A program made the translations under genes and the position numbers. A DNA stretch of 64,000 nucleotides from a virus (Duplodnaviria; Heunggongvirae; Uroviricota; Caudoviricetes), in the IMG/VR virus record IMGVR_UViG_3300036768_001066. The stretch is one strand, 5' to 3'. The notes beneath the pieces are model-generated. The model was not told where the DNA came from, made no database searches, and saw only the letters and a list, made by a program, of their open reading frames with translations. The stretch's first letter is position 1. Each line of letters starts with the position of its first letter. Shown here piece after piece: positions 7,154 to 50,719 of the stretch.

Positions 7154-7339
7154 TTATGATCGATCAACAGTATCAGTATGAAGAATATTAGTGCTGTCAT
7201 TTTGTGGAGTTTTCATTTGTGCCTCATTATTTTTAACTTCGTCGTTCACAGAGTTCCTGTATATAGTCATGCCAAACATGAACAAGAACAGCGCCACGAA
7301 GAACAGCTGTTCCGGATCTATGCGGTTTCCTTTACCCAT
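7154..7339 (-). CDS. small membrane protein (61 aa)
   Basis: Hydrophobic stretch FFVALFLFMFGMTIY. Overlaps the upstream HAD gene stop. Terminator immediately downstream. Confidence 0.35.
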   Translation of the reverse strand: MGKGNRIDPEQLFFVALFLFMFGMTIYRNSVNDEVKNNEAQMKTPQNDSTNILHTDTVDRS

Positions 7340-7920
7340 GGCGATTTAGCTTTTATTATATGGTCGTCAGTTATGTCCTGGATCTTCTTGACTATTGCGT
7401 GGATGCGCGGGTGGTGCTTTATTTTCCAGTTGTACTTAGTGTACTTATTGGACACCATTATGGTCGGCACGTGCAATGACAGCGCGTCTATTACGCCATG
7501 CGGCGCGTCGTCGACCCAGATCTCCACGCCCTTGTCCATTATCTTGTTGATCTTGGTCTCGTTAAAGTCGACGAAGTTTATGTCCTTGATCTCCGGGTAC
7601 AGCCTGTTGACCATGTCTATTGTCGGCGCGTGCAGAGCGGGGCCTCTGGCCGTTATCAACGATATGTGATGACCGGCATCGATCCAACGCTTGATGGTCT
7701 CCTGCGAGCCCTCAATCGGCTCAACAGCATCGCACATGATAACCGGATCTACAAACATCTCAAGCATGCGACGCTTCATGTCGTCCGGGAAGTTTGATTG
7801 GTACCAGTCGATAACGTCCACGTCAGTGTAGTCGTATCCAAGTTCCTTTGCGGCCTTACCGCATACAGTCATCGTTATGAGTGTCGAGTCGAGGTCGACT
7901 CCTATAATTTTTTTTTCCAT
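7318..7920 (-). CDS. HAD-superfamily 5'(3')-deoxyribonucleotidase-like phosphatase
   Basis: Motif I IIGVDLDSTL (DxDxT) at the N-terminus. HAD-like spacing with a later WVDD motif. About 200 aa, typical of NT5C-like phage nucleotidases. Confidence 0.6.
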   Translation of the reverse strand: MEKKIIGVDLDSTLITMTVCGKAAKELGYDYTDVDVIDWYQSNFPDDMKRRMLEMFVDPVIMCDAVEPIEGSQETIKRWIDAGHHISLITARGPALHAPTIDMVNRLYPEIKDINFVDFNETKINKIMDKGVEIWVDDAPHGVIDALSLHVPTIMVSNKYTKYNWKIKHHPRIHAIVKKIQDITDDHIIKAKSPWVKETA

Positions 7921-8007
7921 GTTCTTACTTATTATATTTACGGTCTTGCCTCCTTATCTTAACCTTAAGTCCGGAGTCATCGGTTATATTAAATGTAATC
8001 ATAACAA

Positions 8008-8027
8008 GTGGTGGGATTCGAACCCAC
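8008..8027 (-). other. tRNA T-arm-like perfect palindrome (GTGGG-TTCGAAT-CCCAC on minus strand); tRNA remnant or terminator hairpin
   Basis: Top strand reads GTGGGATTCGAACCCAC. The minus strand gives a canonical T-stem/T-loop (GTGGGTTCGAATCCCAC). No acceptor, D or anticodon arms could be built from flanking sequence. It lies 30 nt downstream of the stop of gene 8056-8421. Confidence 0.3.
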
Positions 8028-8055
8028 ATTTACTGCTCCGATTACGATTAACTGT

Positions 8056-8666
8056 TTAGAAAACAGACTCGGCCTCTTCAGCCTCTTTTTTAATTTGCTC
8101 CCAGGTCTTACCCGCGTGACTCATATACGTCCTCTTGAGCTTCTCGGTCTCTGCGTACTTACGCGTGTTGTAACCGTATGCTGCGTAGAGGTCGAGCTCC
8201 ACCTCGAGCAGGTCTATCAGTTTGTAGAACTGGAGTGACGTCATAGTCTTGATGTCGAGCGTCGAGTTATCGTCGTTGAGCGGGTTGTCCGACTCGAGTA
8301 TGTTGGTCTTCTTCTTGTTTTTTAATAGACCAGCAAAGAAGCCGACAGTCGATTTATCGCTGAGCCAATCAATGATCTCGTTGCGTTCATCAGCCGTGAA
8401 CTTTGTCTCATCGTATTCCATGAAAAGTTTGGTAACTTCCTTCTTGAACGACTCGACATGTGATGCAGCCTCGGTTAACGATTCTTTGACATCTGGTATC
8501 TTGTAGCCCTTGCGCTTGGCATAGCTATACGCTATGGCAGCGGCCTGTTTGGGATTCTTGCCCTCGCTTCTCAGCTTAGCTATTTTTTTTTGGATATGTA
8601 CGACTGAGCATCGGCGCTGAGCTTCTCGTCTACTTTATCAAAGTTGTTGAACTTGCCTATTGACAT
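8056..8666 (-). pseudogene. hypothetical protein gene interrupted at an A9 homopolymer (frameshift, sequencing error, or programmed slippage)
   Basis: ATG at 8666 gives MSIGKFNNFDKVDEKLSADAQSYISKKK followed by TAG, crossing the A9 run (top T9 at 8583-8591). The other frame continues protein-like with no ATG (IAKLRSEGKNPKQAAAIAYSYAKRKGYKIPDVKESLTEAASHVESFKKEVTKLF) straight into the listed ORF MEYDETKF... at 8056-8421. One extra A, or a -1 shift on A_AAA_AAA, fuses them into a single ~203-aa protein. Confidence 0.45.
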
Positions 8667-8710
8667 TTGGTGAAGATTTGTATCTCTAAAAAAGGATTTG
8701 ATGTATGATA

Positions 8711-8740
8711 AACATATCCGGCGTTGACTTTAATTCCGGC
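8711..8740. repeat. two 10-bp direct repeats TCCGGCGTTG spaced 20 bp centre-to-centre in an intergenic region
   Basis: tccggcgttg at 8711-8720 and 8731-8740. They lie upstream (minus sense) of the ATG at 8666, in the 150-bp gap before gene 8820-9347. Candidate protein-binding site. Confidence 0.4.
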
Positions 8741-8819
8741 GTTGTTTTCTTGAGGAAACGACCAAGTTTTGAGGCTTGTACGAATACCGAATAAATATAA
8801 CAATTTTTCTAACATGATG

Positions 8820-9347
8820 TTAGCTCATTTCCTCCTGTTTGACCGCGTCCCACATCGCGTGCTCCACGACAAACGGATTAACCTTGAGATACGCCTCCCT
8901 TGAAGATGTGGCCTGAACTCCTTTCACCACGTCAACCAGTTCGCCCACGCCAGAGTACAACAGCACGTTGTACATGCTGCTCTCGGTGTTCCTGCTGTAT
9001 ACAACGTGCGGATTGTCCGACCTGTCGATGTGGAGCACATCCACGTCCACGACCTCCTTGACGTGTACCTTCAGTTTGCGCTTCGCAAAATAAGCGCCCT
9101 TGGCCGGTATCGTTATATTGAACGGTCCAATGCACTGGGGGTTGTGTCCGTCGTCCACGATGATGTTGAACTCCATATAGTAGTCCTCGTCGTGTATCAG
9201 CTTGGACTCCTTGACTTTCCGCATCTTATATCGCTTGAGTCTCCACGTGCGGAACTGGTCCCGGATCTTTATTAGAAATCCGGGTGCGAGGTATGTCCAG
9301 AAAATTTCGGACAGATTTGGTACCTTATCTTTCGGTGATAGTTCCAT
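8820..9347 (-). CDS. hypothetical protein (175 aa)
   Basis: Co-oriented ORF. Overlaps the downstream HAD-like gene start. No motif recognised. Confidence 0.45.
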   Translation of the reverse strand: MELSPKDKVPNLSEIFWTYLAPGFLIKIRDQFRTWRLKRYKMRKVKESKLIHDEDYYMEFNIIVDDGHNPQCIGPFNITIPAKGAYFAKRKLKVHVKEVVDVDVLHIDRSDNPHVVYSRNTESSMYNVLLYSGVGELVDVVKGVQATSSREAYLKVNPFVVEHAMWDAVKQEEMS

Positions 9348-11285: not shown

Positions 11286-12200
11286 TTAATCACCGCCGCC
11301 GCCGCATCCGCCGCCGCCACACGAACTACCACACGAACTCGATCCGCCGCCGCCCGAATCCCCTCCACCTGATGATGAGGAACAACTGCTTGAACAACTG
11401 CTGTGACTTGAACAACTGCTGTGACTATGTCCGGAACACGACGAAGAACAGCTCGATATTATTGGTGACGACGAGCATCCACTATTGTTATTATCGTCAT
11501 CTTTCTTCTTTTTTTTACTCGAACACGATGAGTAGGATCTCGTGTACGAAGAGCTTCCGTACGAAGAACCGTAACTCTTGGAATTTCTGGAATTGGAACG
11601 CCTGTTGTTTCTGACGATTGAATTTATTATAGCGGCAACAATAACCCCGCCAAGTATCAACCCTAAAACGAGCATCCATGCTGTGCCGGATGTCATCAAC
11701 AGAACAGAGGAAATTCCGAGAACTGCCCTGACTCCGTTCGCGAACTTCGAGCGTTTTCTGACAGTGTCTACTATAATTTGACGCTCGTCACGCACAACCT
11801 CGTCGCCGCCCCAGATGTCAGATGGCGGAGTCTGTCCGAATTCCACCACGTAGGCTTCCTTAGTTTCCTTGTACACATCACGGAATTTAGCTTCTGCCAC
11901 CTCATTACCGTCACCTGGATTGTGGTGAATCTCGGTTCCGAGAATCCCTGCGCAGAGGTCCTTCCAGTATGATTTGGTATATTGCAGGTGCAGGTGCCAA
12001 ACCTCATCTATGCGTTTGGATGGAGTGACCTCCATAATTGTAGCCAAATACATGAACTTCTTGTATTCTTCAAATGCACGCGCAGCAAGCTCCATGCTCC
12101 ACCCGTTCTCCTTAGCGAGCTTCTTCAAGAAGCTGCGAGGAGCGCTATTGTCGTCCACCATGAACGACGCGAGCTTATCCCAGAGTTGTTTGTTTTTCAT
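11286..12200 (-). CDS. membrane protein: N-terminal conserved domain (WHLHLQYTKSYW motif), one TM helix, Ser/Cys/Gly-rich C-terminal tail
   Basis: TM segment VLGISSVLLMTSGTAWMLVLGLILGGVIVAAII. The tail is CSSSCSGHSHSSCSSHSSCSSSCSSSSGGGDSGGGGSSSCGSSCGGGGCGGGGD. The neighbouring TPM-domain protein has the same tail architecture. Confidence 0.55.
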   Translation of the reverse strand: MKNKQLWDKLASFMVDDNSAPRSFLKKLAKENGWSMELAARAFEEYKKFMYLATIMEVTPSKRIDEVWHLHLQYTKSYWKDLCAGILGTEIHHNPGDGNEVAEAKFRDVYKETKEAYVVEFGQTPPSDIWGGDEVVRDERQIIVDTVRKRSKFANGVRAVLGISSVLLMTSGTAWMLVLGLILGGVIVAAIINSIVRNNRRSNSRNSKSYGSSYGSSSYTRSYSSCSSKKKKKDDDNNNSGCSSSPIISSCSSSCSGHSHSSCSSHSSCSSSCSSSSGGGDSGGGGSSSCGSSCGGGGCGGGGD

Positions 12201-15849: not shown

Positions 15850-16980
15850 CTACTTCTTTTTGACGATGTGAGACAACGCGTTTTTCTCATGCAAATTTGC
15901 AATCAACTCGATGTAGGTACCATACTCCGCGATCTCTTCTGCGCTGTAACCTTCGGTTTCACCGATGCTCTTGAAGTTATTTTGCCAATATTTTATAGAG
16001 TATTTCATGCAGCCGATTTGAATCTCATCTGAGCCCCAATACGACACGTGATGTCTTGATCCGTTGAAGCTGAGAGAGCGCACGATAACGCATTCCTCGA
16101 TGCTCGCGCCGTCGCCGATGATCGTGCCGTCGCCGATGATCGCGTACCGGCTGATTTTCGCGTCCCATCCGATGCTCGCGCCGTCGCCGATGATCGCGCC
16201 GTCGCCGATGCTCGCGCACCGGCCGATTTTCGCGCCTTCGCCGATTTTCGCGCCCCGGCCGATGTTCGCGCGGGGGCCGATGCTCGCGCCGTCGCCGATG
16301 ATCGCGCCGTCGCCGATGCTCGCGCGGGGGGCGATGATCGCGCCTTCGCCGATGATCGCGCGGGGGCCGATGTTCGCGCGGGGGGCGATGCTCGCGCCGT
16401 CGCCGATGCTCGCGCCCCGGCCGATGCTCGCGCCCCGGCCGATGTTCGCGCCTTCGCCGATGTTCGTGCGGGGGCCGATGCTCGCGTCCCATCCGATGTT
16501 CGCGCCGTCGCCGATGCTCGCGCCTTCGCCGATGTTCGTGCGGGGGCCGATGATCGCGCCGTCGCCGATGCTCGCGCGTGGGCCGATTTTCGCGCGTGGG
16601 GCGATGCTCGCGCCTTCGCCGATGATCGCGCCGTCGCCGATGATCGCGCCGTCGCCGATGTTCGTGCCCCGGCCGATGCTCGCGCCCCGGCCGATGCTCG
16701 CGCCTTCGCCGATGTTCGTGCGGGGGCCGATGCTCGCGTCCCATCCGATGCTCGCGCCTTCGCCGATGTTCGTGCGGGGGCCGATGCTCGCGCCTTCGCC
16801 GATGCTCGCGCCGTCGCCGATGCTCGCGCCCCGGCCGATGATCGCGCCGTCGCCGATGCTCACGCGCTGGCCGATGCTAATGCCACGCTTTTTGAACTCA
16901 GCGGAGATGTCGCTGAGTTTATCGTACTCGAATGTTTCCCACCGTGACTTTTCCAGTGTAAAAAGTTTTACCGATTTCAT
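15850..16980 (-). CDS. hexapeptide-repeat (left-handed beta-helix) protein, ~44 consecutive repeats of x-x-[SNIT]-I-G-x
   Basis: Repeats of the form GASIGD / GASIGP / RTNIGE / GASIGW / DASIGP fill ~270 aa, between a short N-terminal region (MKSVKLFTLEKSRWETFEYDKL...) and an ~80-aa non-repeat C-terminal domain. The start is set at the internal ATG 16980 because the longer ORF would overlap the upstream gene. The repeat DNA is visibly GC-richer than the flanks and has strict 18-bp periodicity. Confidence 0.7.
   Translation of the reverse strand: MKSVKLFTLEKSRWETFEYDKLSDISAEFKKRGISIGQRVSIGDGAIIGRGASIGDGASIGEGASIGPRTNIGEGASIGWDASIGPRTNIGEGASIGRGASIGRGTNIGDGAIIGDGAIIGEGASIAPRAKIGPRASIGDGAIIGPRTNIGEGASIGDGANIGWDASIGPRTNIGEGANIGRGASIGRGASIGDGASIAPRANIGPRAIIGEGAIIAPRASIGDGAIIGDGASIGPRANIGRGAKIGEGAKIGRCASIGDGAIIGDGASIGWDAKISRYAIIGDGTIIGDGASIEECVIVRSLSFNGSRHHVSYWGSDEIQIGCMKYSIKYWQNNFKSIGETEGYSAEEIAEYGTYIELIANLHEKNALSHIVKKK
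16064..16900. repeat. 18-bp periodic coding repeat array (GC-rich) underlying the hexapeptide-repeat gene
   Basis: Iterations of cgccgatgctcgcgcc[n]. The spurious long ORFs in other frames (16025-16744 minus, 16064-17140 plus) come from this periodicity. Confidence 0.7.
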
Positions 16981-31550: not shown

Positions 31551-31778
31551 GGTTATCTTTTTGTTTGTCAATCGGCCTAATATAGGCAAATTTTCGGGTC
31601 CGATCAGCGACGGCTGGAGATTCTTCCACCGCGTAAGTACTTAACCGGTTACAAACCCTGGGGTTTTTGGGATAATTTTTTTATGCGCGTTTCGAACTTT
31701 TGTTTCGGCCGAAGCGCCGTTTCGTCATTTTTTTTTAGGGACCCGCGACAAATGGGCGATCCGCCGGTAATAGATGGT

Positions 31779-35503: not shown

Positions 35504-35557
35504 GACTTTTTCGGGGATTGTTCTATAAAAAAAAACAAACAATTTTTCAGAAGAGAG

Positions 35558-49063: not shown

Positions 49064-49997
49064 TAGTTACCAGGTTTTTAATTTTGTCCGCCATGTGGTT
49101 CCACGTATAGTTGCGGTGAACCAGTTCGCAACCTGCCTGCGATATTCTTATCCTCTCGTCCTTGTTCCTCTCGTCAAGGTAGTATTCTATAAGTTCATCG
49201 AGTTCATCCAAATCGTGCCATACTCTTATATTGATCTTGTCTTCAAAATCGAGTTCTATGCCGGGGTACCACTTAGACAAGCACAGTGCCCCGCTGCCCA
49301 TTAGGCGTAGCATGCGGTCTGATGTGTACCTGAGCGCGTCGAAGTGTGACACGTTTATGGCCACCTTAGAGCTCCTGTAGCACTCGGCCTCCTTGGCCTC
49401 CCTGTACATGAAGTTACGCATGTCGTTACCCCACCCGAATCCGTACACTCCGAAATTTGTACCGTACTTGGACGACAGCGTGTTGACCATCTTGATTCTA
49501 TAGTCTGCCAGGGGGAAATCGTAGTCTTCCTTTGGGTAGTTGTTGCCCATGAAAACTATCTGTGGGTATTCTCCCACGCCACCGTCTGGCCTGAATATAT
49601 CATCGTTGAATCCGCTCTGGATGAACTCGGCGTTCATGCCGAGGGCGCGCATGAACATAACATCCTCATCGTTGGTGAACGCGGTTACGTCCACGGACCT
49701 CCCACAATCAATCATCCACTGAGGCGTAAGTTTTCGAAAGTCCCAGGTCCAGTTCACCTTAAACCCCGGTAGCTTGGCGAGCACCTCCGGCGTGTAGACA
49801 CCCGGTGATTGCACGTGCAGGAATATCAGGTCTGGTTTGAACCGCTCGGCCGTCTCTAACGTCTTCGCGTGAAGAGCCGCCGTGTTGTTGGGCACGGAGG
49901 TCCACAGAGTCCAGTCGAGGAACAGGTATTCGCTCGATGCGTCCGATAACGCCTTGCAGAGTGCGGGTACGGTAAATCCTATGTGCAGGGTCCTCAT
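49041..49997 (-). CDS. glycosyltransferase (CgeB/GT4-like C-terminal domain)
   Basis: About 320 aa. C-terminal half with ...VAINVSHFDALRYTSDRMLRLMGSGALCL... resembles CgeB-type GT-B domains. First gene of the minus-strand glycan block. Confidence 0.5.
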   Translation of the reverse strand: MRTLHIGFTVPALCKALSDASSEYLFLDWTLWTSVPNNTAALHAKTLETAERFKPDLIFLHVQSPGVYTPEVLAKLPGFKVNWTWDFRKLTPQWMIDCGRSVDVTAFTNDEDVMFMRALGMNAEFIQSGFNDDIFRPDGGVGEYPQIVFMGNNYPKEDYDFPLADYRIKMVNTLSSKYGTNFGVYGFGWGNDMRNFMYREAKEAECYRSSKVAINVSHFDALRYTSDRMLRLMGSGALCLSKWYPGIELDFEDKINIRVWHDLDELDELIEYYLDERNKDERIRISQAGCELVHRNYTWNHMADKIKNLVTNDSYVRR

Positions 49998-50004
49998 CTA
50001 TCTA

Positions 50005-50086
50005 TAAGTTATGGCTTTTATTATATACTGCTCACCAAATAAGTTACGGCTTTTATTATATACTGCTCACCAAACATTAAGTTTTA
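50005..50086. repeat. 35-bp tandem direct repeat (2.3 copies) in a divergent intergenic region
   Basis: TAAGTTA[T/C]GGCTTTTATTATATACTGCTCACCAAA at 50005-50039 and 50040-50074, then a partial CATTAAGTTTTA. It lies between the divergently oriented gene blocks, with starts at 49997 (minus) and 50138 (plus). Confidence 0.75.
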
Positions 50087-50137: not shown

Positions 50138-50719
50138 ATGAAAAGGGTAATACTCATCGGTCCGGGCGCATCCGGCAAGGATTTTTTGAAACACGAGCTC
50201 GAACGGAAGGGGTTCAAGTGCTCCGTATCGTTCACGACGAGGCCGCCGAGGCCTGGCGAGGTGGAGGGCGTAAACTATTACTACATATCCGAGGAGCAGT
50301 TTCTGGGGATGATAAATAACGATGAGTTCCGTGAGTGGAACAAGTTCGCCGATAAGTGGTATTACGGCACGCCAAAGAAGCACTTCGACGGCGCCAACCT
50401 GTTCATAATGACCCCGTCGGGGATCAAGGCGTTGACCGACGAGGAGCGCTCGGAATCGTTGGTTATATACATCGACGCGCCCGAGGATGTGCGCAGACAG
50501 AGACTTGCATCAAGGAAGGACGCTGACGACCCGGAAAGGCGTCTTGCTACCGACCGTGCTGATTTTGCCGGGTTCAAGGATTTCGATTGGCACATAACGG
50601 ACCCCGAGTTCAGCGCGGACGAGATGTACGAGAAGATAGAGTCGCACAGACGCTGGTCCATGCTCGCCGACAAAGATCCAAAGGCCGGCAGCACAGTACT
50701 CACAAGACCTCGAAAATAG
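50138..50719 (+). CDS. gmk: guanylate kinase
   Basis: P-loop ILIGPGASGKDFL. Signature SVSFTTRPPRPGEVEGVNYYYIS (TTRxxRxxExxGxxYxF). Confidence 0.75.
   Translation: MKRVILIGPGASGKDFLKHELERKGFKCSVSFTTRPPRPGEVEGVNYYYISEEQFLGMINNDEFREWNKFADKWYYGTPKKHFDGANLFIMTPSGIKALTDEERSESLVIYIDAPEDVRRQRLASRKDADDPERRLATDRADFAGFKDFDWHITDPEFSADEMYEKIESHRRWSMLADKDPKAGSTVLTRPRK

What the first reader, a model, noticed from the sequence alone, without database searches (positions are those of the whole stretch)
8056..8666. A9 homopolymer joins two ORFs: sequencing indel or programmed frameshift/transcriptional slippage site
A 28-codon ORF (MSIGKFNNF...SYISKKK) ends exactly at the A9 run (top-strand T9, 8583-8591).

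The -1 frame continues for 50+ codons of protein-like sequence with no start codon until it merges with the annotated ORF 8056-8421.

A_AAA_AAA is a textbook slippery site, and A9 is also a polymerase-stuttering length. Either mechanism would make a ~203-aa fusion protein alongside a 28-aa peptide.
Basis: seen in the sequence. Interest (0 to 1): 0.55.

Follow-up and report, generated by a model that had tools for sequence, protein, structure and literature searches.

The report
Frameshifted spare gene copy at A9 run
The two reading frames are one phage gene of unknown function, broken by a run of nine A's that no relative has, in an extra inserted copy of a gene this jumbo phage probably also carries intact, so this looks like an ordinary, possibly leaky, frameshift mutation, not a programmed recoding signal.

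Summary
On the minus strand a 28-codon ORF (8666-8580) ends TCC AAA AAA AAA TAG. The -1 frame then stays open for 175 more codons to the stop at 8056.

It is one gene. Homologues P0002 and P0004, and at least 13 inspected members of a family with 720 hits (E <= 0.001), read straight through this point with a fixed S-K-K-I motif. A profile built only from other proteins matches frame 0 up to the run and frame -1 after it.

No relative has a slippery run here (TCG AAA AAG ATC; TCC AAA AAG ATA). No stimulatory RNA structure follows the run. Programmed recoding therefore has no conservation support.

A9 is reproduced in an independent Logan assembly, on a contig seen in two samples. All 15 other homopolymers in the 64 kb are in frame or outside genes. 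An assembly artefact is therefore unlikely.

The gene lies on an ~850-bp insertion found only in this phage; five related phage types lack it. An intact 159-aa paralogue (P0160) is recorded with the same 373,759-bp contig length.

Best reading: a genuine frameshift in a redundant, horizontally acquired paralogue. A 9-A run is known to make RNA polymerase slip, so some full-length protein may still be made. Interest is low.

The parts
8583..8591 (-). A9 homopolymer (T9 on the top strand). This is where the frame breaks: 0-frame AAA AAA AAA, followed by TAG at 8582-8580.
   Evidence: The same A9 is in the independent Logan contig L006. Homologues have AAAAAG-AT here, not a long run.
8580..8666 (-). 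5' piece of the gene: 28 codons plus TAG (MSIGKFNNFDKVDEKLSADAQSYISKKK*). It holds the conserved N-terminus and the first third of the ~45-aa domain.
   Evidence: The N-terminus aligns with P0002, P0003 and P0160. An independent profile matches at positions 5-27, E 3.7e-5.
8056..8583 (-). 3' piece of the gene in the -1 frame: ATA(8583-8581) GCT ... TAA(8058-8056), 175 codons (IAKLRSEGKNPKQAAAIAYSYAKRKGYKIP...).
   Evidence: An independent profile matches at positions 23-61, E 1.4e-18. Against L001, pN is 0.094 and pS 0.80 in the N-domain part; dN is 0.028 and dS 0.256 in the C-module.
8056..8421 (-). The 121-aa ORF listed in the JGI/IMG record (P0001). It starts at an internal Met of the real gene.
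8494..8627 (-). Widespread ~45-aa helical module (phrog_2423; weak DUF6496-like match) with the motif [LM]S..A..[FYW]IS-K-K-I..L..EG...QA.AIAYS.A+.+GY. The A9 run splits it.
   Evidence: phrog_2423 E 1.2e-6. Pfam DUF6496 E 0.03, below the family cut-off. 720 library hits at E<=1e-3; the best stretch of nearly all 150 listed hits spans the junction. Sequences.
8059..8298 (-). C-terminal module (ESDNPLNDDNSTLDIKTMTSLQFYKLIDLLE...LDLYAAYGYNTRKYAETEKLK.TYMSHAGKTWEQIKKEAEEAE). Its DNA is close to the L001 copy (dS 0.26). It carries an in-frame 23-codon deletion near 8200 relative to all other members.
   Evidence: The module also sits inside a 685-aa protein in L010. Logan contigs L006 and L009 both stop inside it.
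7935..8790 (-). An ~850-bp insertion that carries the gene (boundaries approximate). It is absent from five related phage types, where the 175-178-aa gene is followed by the NT5C-like gene after 33-67 bp.
8794..8823 (-). Conserved promoter-like element (CTAACA-18-TATATT; ...CATGTTAGAAAAATTGTTATATTT) just upstream of the insertion. It is inferred to drive the inserted gene.
   Evidence: Consensus scan. The element is conserved in all relatives while the flanks diverge. It occurs once in the window.
8011..8027 (-). GC-rich hairpin GTGGG-TTCGAAT-CCCAC, 29 nt after the stop. It looks like a terminator or a tRNA T-arm and lies at the 3' end of the insertion.
   Evidence: Weak sub-threshold Rfam tRNA hit at 8003-8090 (20.5 bits, E 0.92). 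ARAGORN finds no tRNA.

Best explanation
Window 8056-8666 (minus strand) is a single protein-coding gene of unknown function. It has a short conserved N-terminus, a widespread ~45-aa helical module (phrog_2423 / DUF6496-like), a 66-aa middle segment and a C-terminal 'LQFYKLIDLLE' module.

Its reading frame is broken inside the 45-aa module by a homopolymer-length change that produced A9. The family's invariant S-K-K-I would be TCC AAA AAA ATA (A7), so the window is +2 nt. Equivalently, it is one nt short of an A10 allele coding S-K-K-K-I.

The lesion is most likely real DNA and a one-off mutation, not a conserved recoding device. It lies in an extra paralogue on an ~850-bp insertion unique to this jumbo phage. 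An intact 159-aa paralogue is probably present elsewhere in the same genome.

Standard decoding gives a 28-aa peptide, and perhaps a 121-aa product from the internal ATG at 8421.

Inferred, not shown: 9-A runs make bacterial RNA polymerases slip, and A_AAA_AAA is a ribosomal slip site. A minority of expression may therefore restore the frame as a 203-aa protein with one extra Lys. That would be adventitious leakiness, not design.
For: **One gene**
- P0002, P0004 and P0160 run uninterrupted across the junction.
- In the 1.84-billion-protein library the module has 720 hits at E<=1e-3. The best stretch of nearly all 150 listed hits spans profile positions ~14-58, across the junction.
- A non-circular profile splits between the two frames at the run.
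- The -1 frame shows purifying selection: pN 0.094 against pS 0.80, and dN 0.028 against dS 0.256.

**Not conserved recoding**
- Homologue DNA is TCG AAA AAG ATC and TCC AAA AAG ATA.
- All 13 aligned homologues keep exactly two residues between S and I.
- phrog_2423 aligns only from the residue after the extra Lys.
- The downstream RNA fold is not better than shuffles (z = -0.75).

**Real DNA**
- A9 is also in Logan contig L006, seen in two samples.
- All 15 other listed homopolymers (A/T >=7, G/C >=6) in the 64 kb are in frame or intergenic.

**Redundant inserted copy**
- Five related phage types lack the insertion.
- P0160, an intact 159-aa paralogue, is recorded for a JGI contig of the same length, 373,759 bp.
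- Relatives carry their copy at another locus: L001 and L007 come from one sample, and L003 and L011 from another.
- The window copy also has a 23-codon deletion in the C-module.

**Leakiness**
- The Atkins et al. 2016 review (PMC5009743) states that bacterial RNA polymerase slips with high efficiency in vivo on runs of 9 A or T.
- An A11 run rescues the interrupted tssM1 gene in Citrobacter rodentium (PMC4256274).
Against: - No reads were available. The JGI and Logan assemblies may derive from the same library, so a systematic homopolymer miscall is not fully excluded.
- The downstream frame is free of stops for 175 codons and looks selected. That is also what a gene still expressed through recoding would show.
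- The 23-codon deletion is in frame, so it is not clear evidence of decay.
- The host and the transcribing polymerase are unknown. The slippage rate is extrapolated from E. coli, Thermus and Shigella.
Confidence: 0.62

Rival explanations
1. Sequencing or assembly error: the true genome has A10 (SKKKI) or A7 (SKKI), and the gene is intact.
For: Homopolymers are the classic site of indel miscalls. All homologues are intact. The downstream frame looks fully coding. The platform is unknown.
Against: An independent Logan assembly, on a contig seen in two samples, gives the same A9. All 15 other homopolymers in the 64 kb, including an A9 at 7908-7916 and an A8 at 11509-11516, are in frame or intergenic. 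The family-typical state (A7) would need a 2-nt error. No intact allele of this copy exists among 5.8 billion protein clusters.
Confidence: 0.15
2. Used recoding or a contingency switch: the A9 run is kept because RNA-polymerase slippage, -1 ribosomal frameshifting on A_AAA_AAA before the TAG, or replication slippage sets a ratio, or an ON/OFF state, between the 28-aa peptide and the 203-aa protein.
For: The run is A9, the length at which bacterial RNA polymerase slips efficiently (PMC5009743). The heptamer is in the right register and is followed at once by a stop. The downstream frame is intact and under purifying selection relative to homologues. Precedents exist: tssM1 A11, Thermus dnaX and Shigella spa13.
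Against: Nothing is conserved: no homologue has a run or a split. The rescued product would carry an extra Lys inside a motif with fixed spacing in all 13 aligned homologues. No stimulatory structure follows the run. The gene is a single-lineage insertion with an intact paralogue available. The selection signal may entirely predate the mutation.
Confidence: 0.15
3. Two independent genes: a 28-aa peptide gene and a separate 121-aa gene starting at ATG 8421, with 8422-8579 non-coding.
For: This is how the JGI/IMG record lists the region: only the 121-aa ORF is on record.
Against: The stretch 8497-8583 encodes the best-conserved part of the family domain (IAKLRSEGKNPKQAAAIAYSYAKRKGYKIP, E 1.4e-18), with pN far below pS. 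Both halves of one 45-aa domain lie on either side of the run. A 398-bp gap would be atypical of this tightly packed genome.
Confidence: 0.03

Closest known systems
Adventitious transcriptional-slippage rescue of poly(A)-tract frameshifts (C. rodentium tssM1 A11, PMC4256274; Buchnera and Blochmannia poly(A) genes and the Thermus thermophilus dnaX 9-nt run, as summarised in PMC5009743)
   Same: A run of 9 or more A's sits exactly where the frame breaks. The stop comes right after the run. The continuation in the other frame encodes the conserved remainder of the protein. One extra A in the mRNA restores it.
   Different: No RNA or protein data exist here. The run is not conserved in any relative. 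The rescued product would carry an extra Lys in a spacing-invariant motif. The gene is a redundant inserted paralogue, not an essential single-copy gene.
Programmed -1 ribosomal frameshifting (E. coli dnaX A_AAA_AAG, IS911/IS3 orfAB, phage tail-chaperone G/GT)
   Same: An X_XXY_YYZ heptamer (A_AAA_AAA) is in the 0-frame register, and the -1 frame is extended.
   Different: There is no upstream SD-like or downstream stem-loop stimulator. The site and the two-ORF layout are not conserved. The shift falls in the middle of a small folded domain, not between domains or products.
Frameshifted pseudogenes or decaying duplicate accessory genes ('morons') in large phage genomes
   Same: It is a lineage-specific insertion between conserved core genes, downstream of a resident promoter-like element. 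An intact paralogue is probably elsewhere in the genome. There is a frameshift plus an internal deletion.
   Different: The remaining frame is still stop-free and highly similar to functional copies. Any decay is therefore very recent, and function is not excluded.
phrog_2423 / Pfam DUF6496-like small helical module
   Same: It shares the motif ...ISKKI..L..EG...QA.AIAYS.A+K.GY.VP. The module occurs alone (41-90 aa proteins) or embedded in large phage proteins, some fused to a head-maturation-protease domain.
   Different: The Pfam DUF6496 score is below the family cut-off (15.1 against 24 bits). The function of the module is unknown, and no solved structure matches.

Membership tests
Programmed -1 ribosomal frameshift site | Slippery heptamer X_XXY_YYZ in the 0-frame register | tested here: met
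   A_AAA_AAA occupies the last A of Lys26 plus the Lys27 and Lys28 codons and is followed by TAG. The -1 codon after the slip is ATA.
Programmed -1 ribosomal frameshift site | Stimulatory element (downstream stem-loop or pseudoknot, or upstream SD-like sequence) | tested here: not met
   The fold of 8480-8600(-) gives -24.5 kcal/mol, z = -0.75 against shuffles. No AGGAGG-like sequence lies in the ~15 nt upstream.
Programmed -1 ribosomal frameshift site | Shift site and two-ORF architecture conserved among homologues | tested here: not met
   P0002, P0004, P0160 and the other inspected family members are single ORFs. Their DNA is AAA AAG ATC / AAA AAG ATA.
Transcriptional slippage site (dnaX Thermus, tssM1, spa13/mxiE, IS elements) | Homopolymer of about 9 or more A or T in the coding strand at the frame junction | tested here: met
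   A9 at 8583-8591, also in L006. The length criterion is from PMC5009743.
Transcriptional slippage site (dnaX Thermus, tssM1, spa13/mxiE, IS elements) | Heterogeneous mRNA population (A10, A11...) and a trans-frame protein | not testable with these tools
   No transcriptome or proteome data are available. The host and the polymerase are unknown.
Transcriptional slippage site (dnaX Thermus, tssM1, spa13/mxiE, IS elements) | Run retained in orthologues or required for function | tested here: not met
   No homologue has the run. No second phage carrying this inserted copy was found.
Assembly or sequencing homopolymer artefact | Not reproducible in an independent assembly or sample | tested here: not met
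   Logan contig SRR11727984_954830, seen in 2 samples, has the identical A9. Caveat: it may share reads with the JGI assembly.
Assembly or sequencing homopolymer artefact | Other genes in the same contig broken at homopolymers | tested here: not met
   Sixteen runs were listed (A/T >=7 or G/C >=6). All except this one are in frame or intergenic.
Frameshifted redundant paralogue (pseudogene in the making) | Frame disruption relative to intact homologues, inside a conserved domain | tested here: met
Frameshifted redundant paralogue (pseudogene in the making) | Intact paralogue in the same genome | tested here: inconclusive
   P0160 (159 aa, JGI/IMG) is recorded with the same longest-contig length (373,759 bp) and contig count (2) as P0001, P0005 and P0007. 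Its coordinates could not be fetched. It is not in this window.
Frameshifted redundant paralogue (pseudogene in the making) | Relaxed selection or further lesions | tested here: inconclusive
   The C-module has a 23-codon deletion, but it is in frame. The -1 frame has no stops. dN/dS is low, but it is measured over divergence that mostly predates the lesion.
phrog_2423 / DUF6496-like module | Significant profile match | tested here: met
   phrog_2423 E 1.2e-6. A profile search returns 101 proteins at E<=1e-10. Pfam DUF6496 itself reaches only 15.1 bits against a 24-bit cut-off, so this is not a Pfam-level member.

The most novel reading that the evidence does not exclude
The A9 run is a functional expression switch in a jumbo-phage accessory gene. 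RNA-polymerase slippage, with a minor -1 ribosomal component, or replication-slippage phase variation would set the proportion of a 28-aa peptide to a 203-aa two-module protein. This would give the phage a tunable or bet-hedging dose of a second, diverged paralogue.
Probability: 0.12. Interest if true: 0.45.

Novelty: new member of a known kind. Interest (0 to 1): 0.2.

Why it matters
Mostly this is an annotation correction. The 121-aa 'hypothetical protein' on record is the tail of a 203-aa gene, and the 28-aa ORF is its head.

It also gives a clean example of how a K-K-I codon string (AAA AAG ATA) can turn into a slippage-prone homopolymer and break a gene in a newly acquired paralogue.

If the run were shown to be used, it would add a phage accessory gene to the short list of slippage-dependent genes. 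Nothing here suggests a new mechanism.

The ~45-aa module, with 720 hits and often embedded in large phage proteins, and the mobile C-terminal module are uncharacterised. They may deserve separate study.

Tried and rejected
**Searches that found nothing**
- DNA searches of the phage collection, near and distant: no match.
- Exact-pattern scans for A7-A11 alleles in viral and metagenome contigs: nothing, not even the window itself.
- The search for related loci in viral contigs: no relatives.
- The search for related loci in metagenome contigs: only a distant C-module carrier, L010.
- Synteny between the window and the loci carrying P0002 or P0003: none beyond this gene.
- PDB sequence search: no hit.

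**Look-ups that failed**
- Fetching the contig for P0001 and for P0160: not on record.

**Ideas considered and rejected**
- Transposon-like insertion. The 12-nt inverted repeat at the insertion edges (7929-7940 / 8792-8803) has its left arm in the conserved 'empty site' of relatives. Both arms are AT-rich -10-like sequences.
- Real 52-aa gene at 8657-8815. It starts in the conserved intergenic element, and in L007 the same frame stops after 12 codons.
- tRNA at 8003-8090. ARAGORN finds none, and the Rfam hit is far below threshold.

**Not run**
- Structure prediction, because it would not separate the rival explanations.

Full report
**1. Observation**

On the minus strand an ORF starts at ATG 8666 and reads MSIGKFNNFDKVDEKLSADAQSYISKKK. 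It ends TCC AAA AAA AAA TAG. The nine A's are the top-strand T9 at 8583-8591.

The frame one base back (CAA AAA AAA ATA GCT AAG CTG...) is open from 8634 to the TAA at 8058-8056. It contains no ATG, GTG or TTG until 8421, the start of the 121-aa ORF. The public record lists only that 121-aa ORF, as a hypothetical protein (P0001, JGI/IMG).

A -1 shift after the third Lys codon, or one extra A in the mRNA, yields a 203-aa protein ...YISKKKIAKLRSEGK.... The description is therefore accurate.

**2. It is one gene**

A search of the 5.8-billion-cluster protein set with the fused sequence found three relatives besides the 121-aa self-hit.

- P0002 (158 aa) and P0004 (144 aa) run straight across the junction...DYVSKKIAKLRGEGKGPKQAAAIAYSYARRKGYKVP... 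and ...EYISKKIEKLVGEGRPQKQAVAMAYSYAKRKGYKV....
- P0003 shares the N-terminus (MIGRFHNFD) and the C-terminal module, but its middle part differs.

A profile of the junction-spanning N-terminal region was searched against 1.84 billion representative proteins. It returned 720 hits at E<=1e-3 and 101 at E<=1e-10. The best stretch of nearly all 150 listed hits covers profile positions ~14-58, on both sides of the junction.

This ~45-aa module occurs alone (41-90 aa proteins) or inside proteins of up to 1,360 aa. Some of those carry a head-maturation-protease domain. It corresponds to phrog_2423 (E 1.2e-6). It only weakly resembles Pfam DUF6496 (15.1 bits against a 24-bit cut-off).

As a non-circular test I built a profile from 13 homologues, without the window. 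It matches the frame-0 ORF at positions 5-27 (FNNF-DKVDEKLSADAQSYISKK, E 3.7e-5). It matches the -1 ORF at positions 23-61 (HIQKKIAKLRSEGKNPKQAAAIAYSYAKRKGYKIP, E 1.4e-18). The overlap is the A run read in two frames.

Codon comparison with the L001 homologue shows purifying selection in the post-shift frame:

| Region | Non-synonymous | Synonymous |
|---|---|---|
| N-domain part | pN 0.094 | pS 0.80 |
| C-module | dN 0.028 | dS 0.256 |

**3. The run is not conserved**

At the homologous place L001 has TCG AAA AAG ATC GCG, and L002 has TCC AAA AAG ATA GAA. All 13 aligned family members keep exactly x-[KRN]-K-[IV].

The family state is therefore S-K-K-I, which in the window's codons would be A7. 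The window is +2 nt relative to that, or -1 nt relative to a hypothetical A10 (SKKKI) allele.

Any single-base rescue, whether a -1 ribosomal shift or A10 mRNA, adds a third Lys that no relative has. phrog_2423 aligns to the fused protein only from the residue after that Lys.

The 121 nt from the run onward do not fold better than shuffled sequence (z = -0.75). No SD-like sequence precedes the run.

**4. Artefact or real?**

An independent assembly has exactly the same A9 and flanks. It is Logan contig SRR11727984_954830, 7,640 bp, seen in two samples.

In the 64-kb window 16 homopolymers were listed (A/T >=7 or G/C >=6). The A9 at 7908-7916 (ATG GAA AAA AAA ATT) and the A8 at 11509-11516 are in frame. 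The 9-mers at 31728-31736 and 35527-35535 lie before or between genes. None of the others breaks a gene. The assembly is therefore not generally error-prone at homopolymers.

No intact allele of this copy is on record. I cannot exclude that both assemblies share reads, so I leave about 15% for a miscall.

**5. Genomic context**

The window is part of a T4-like jumbo phage. Nearby genes encode Rad50/Mre11-like proteins, a DnaB-like helicase, ribonucleotide reductase, an RNA ligase and glycosyltransferases. The source contig is 373,759 bp.

Close relatives of the flanking genes exist in several samples. In all of them the 175-178-aa gene (window 8820-9347) is followed by the NT5C-like gene (window 7318-7920) after only 33-67 bp. 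These are L007/L008, L011-L013, L014 and L015/L016.

The window phage alone has about 850 extra bases here (~7935-8790). They begin right after a conserved promoter-like element (CTAACATCATGTTAGAAAAAATGTTATATTT). They end with a GC-rich hairpin at 8011-8027.

In the relatives the family member sits at a different locus. L001 comes from the same sample as L007, and L003-L005 from the same samples as L011-L013.

The cluster of P0002 contains a JGI protein, P0160 (159 aa, intact). It is recorded with the same longest-contig length (373,759 bp) and contig count as the window's own proteins. It is not in this window. The phage thus very probably has an intact 'native' copy plus this ectopic one.

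The ectopic copy differs from the other copies in four ways:

- It is 45% identical to P0160 overall.
- Its N-module is anciently diverged, with synonymous sites saturated.
- Its C-module DNA is very close to the L001 copy (dS 0.26).
- It has a 66-aa extra middle segment and an in-frame 23-codon deletion in the C-module.

Both Logan contigs stop inside the C-module. This is expected if near-identical copies co-occur in the sample.

**6. Mechanism**

Shown:
- It is one gene, broken at a non-conserved A9.
- The lesion is reproducible in a second assembly.
- The gene is a lineage-specific inserted paralogue.

Inferred:
- The K-K-I codons (AAA AAG ATA) mutated into a pure A run.
- The run then changed length by replication slippage.
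- The lesion is tolerated because the gene is redundant.

By standard decoding the locus yields the 28-aa peptide, and possibly a 121-aa product from the ATG at 8421.

Bacterial RNA polymerase slips efficiently on runs of 9 A or T (Atkins et al. 2016, PMC5009743). An A11 run rescues the interrupted tssM1 gene (PMC4256274). By analogy, a fraction of transcripts would carry A10 and encode the 203-aa SKKKI protein. A_AAA_AAA next to a stop could add a small ribosomal -1 component. I regard this as adventitious leakiness, not a programmed device.

**7. Comparison and verdict**

The locus works like the poly(A)-tract frameshifts that are partly rescued by polymerase infidelity. It does not meet the conservation and stimulator criteria of a programmed -1 frameshift site. 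It also lacks the conservation or functional evidence of established transcriptional-slippage genes.

It is a new instance of a known kind of event, and mainly an annotation correction. Interest is 0.2. The most novel reading not excluded is a used slippage or phase-variable switch for a second paralogue. I give that about 0.12 probability and moderate interest if true.

Noticed in passing
window 8003-8090 (-), hairpin 8011-8027: A tRNA T-arm-like hairpin (GTGGG TTCGAAT CCCAC) lies 29 nt after the gene's stop, at the 3' end of the insertion. The Rfam tRNA-Sec hit is only 20.5 bits (E 0.92), and ARAGORN finds no tRNA. It could be a tRNA remnant or a terminator.
   Followed up: partly
window 8794-8823 (-); L007 4519-4555, L011, L014, L015: An intergenic element CTAAC(A/G)NCATGTTAGAAAAAATGTTATATTT, containing ATGTTA twice, is conserved across at least five related phages while the flanking sequence diverges. 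It is probably a promoter or regulatory site, and the insertion starts right after it.
   Followed up: partly
window 7929-7940 and 8792-8803: A 12-nt imperfect inverted repeat (TTATTATATTTA / TAAATATAACAA) sits at both edges of the ~850-bp insertion. The left arm is also present in 'empty' sites of relatives, so it is probably two -10-like boxes, not transposon ends.
   Followed up: partly
window 7908-7916 (-): A second A9 run lies 670 bp away, at codons 2-4 of the NT5C-like gene (ATG GAA AAA AAA ATT), and is in frame. Relative L007 has ATG AAA AAG ATA here. This is the same AAAAAG-to-poly-A pattern as in the broken gene.
   Followed up: no
L002 680-860: Homologue P0004 also changes frame inside its C-terminal module. 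...YYEE continues as TLLDLYAGYGFN... in another frame (ORFs L002_294_785 and L002_716_856). This is either another indel in a family member or an assembly chimera.
   Followed up: no
window 16098-16878: There are 43 tandem copies of an 18-nt unit (CGATGCTCGCGCCGTCGC, with a 108-nt super-period) inside overlapping long ORFs. On the minus strand it would encode a hexapeptide (GDGASI-like) repeat protein.
   Followed up: no
L001 3926-3965, 4510-4550, 5804-5840: Several neighbouring small genes in the related phage start with the same N-terminal motif (MKI.[KR]F.EF), which the window gene also has (MSIGKFNNF). A shared N-terminal tag on otherwise different proteins might be a targeting or packaging signal.
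   Followed up: no
window 35520-35540 and 31728-31736: An A9 run sits within TATAAAAAAAAAC between two plus-strand genes; it resembles a T4 late promoter. A T9 run sits just before the probable true start (ATG 31753) of a glycosyltransferase gene. Both lie outside coding frames.
   Followed up: partly
window 50004-50074: Two tandem copies (97% matching) of a 35-nt unit lie in the divergent intergenic region between the minus-strand gene ending at 49997 and the plus-strand gene starting at 50138.
   Followed up: no
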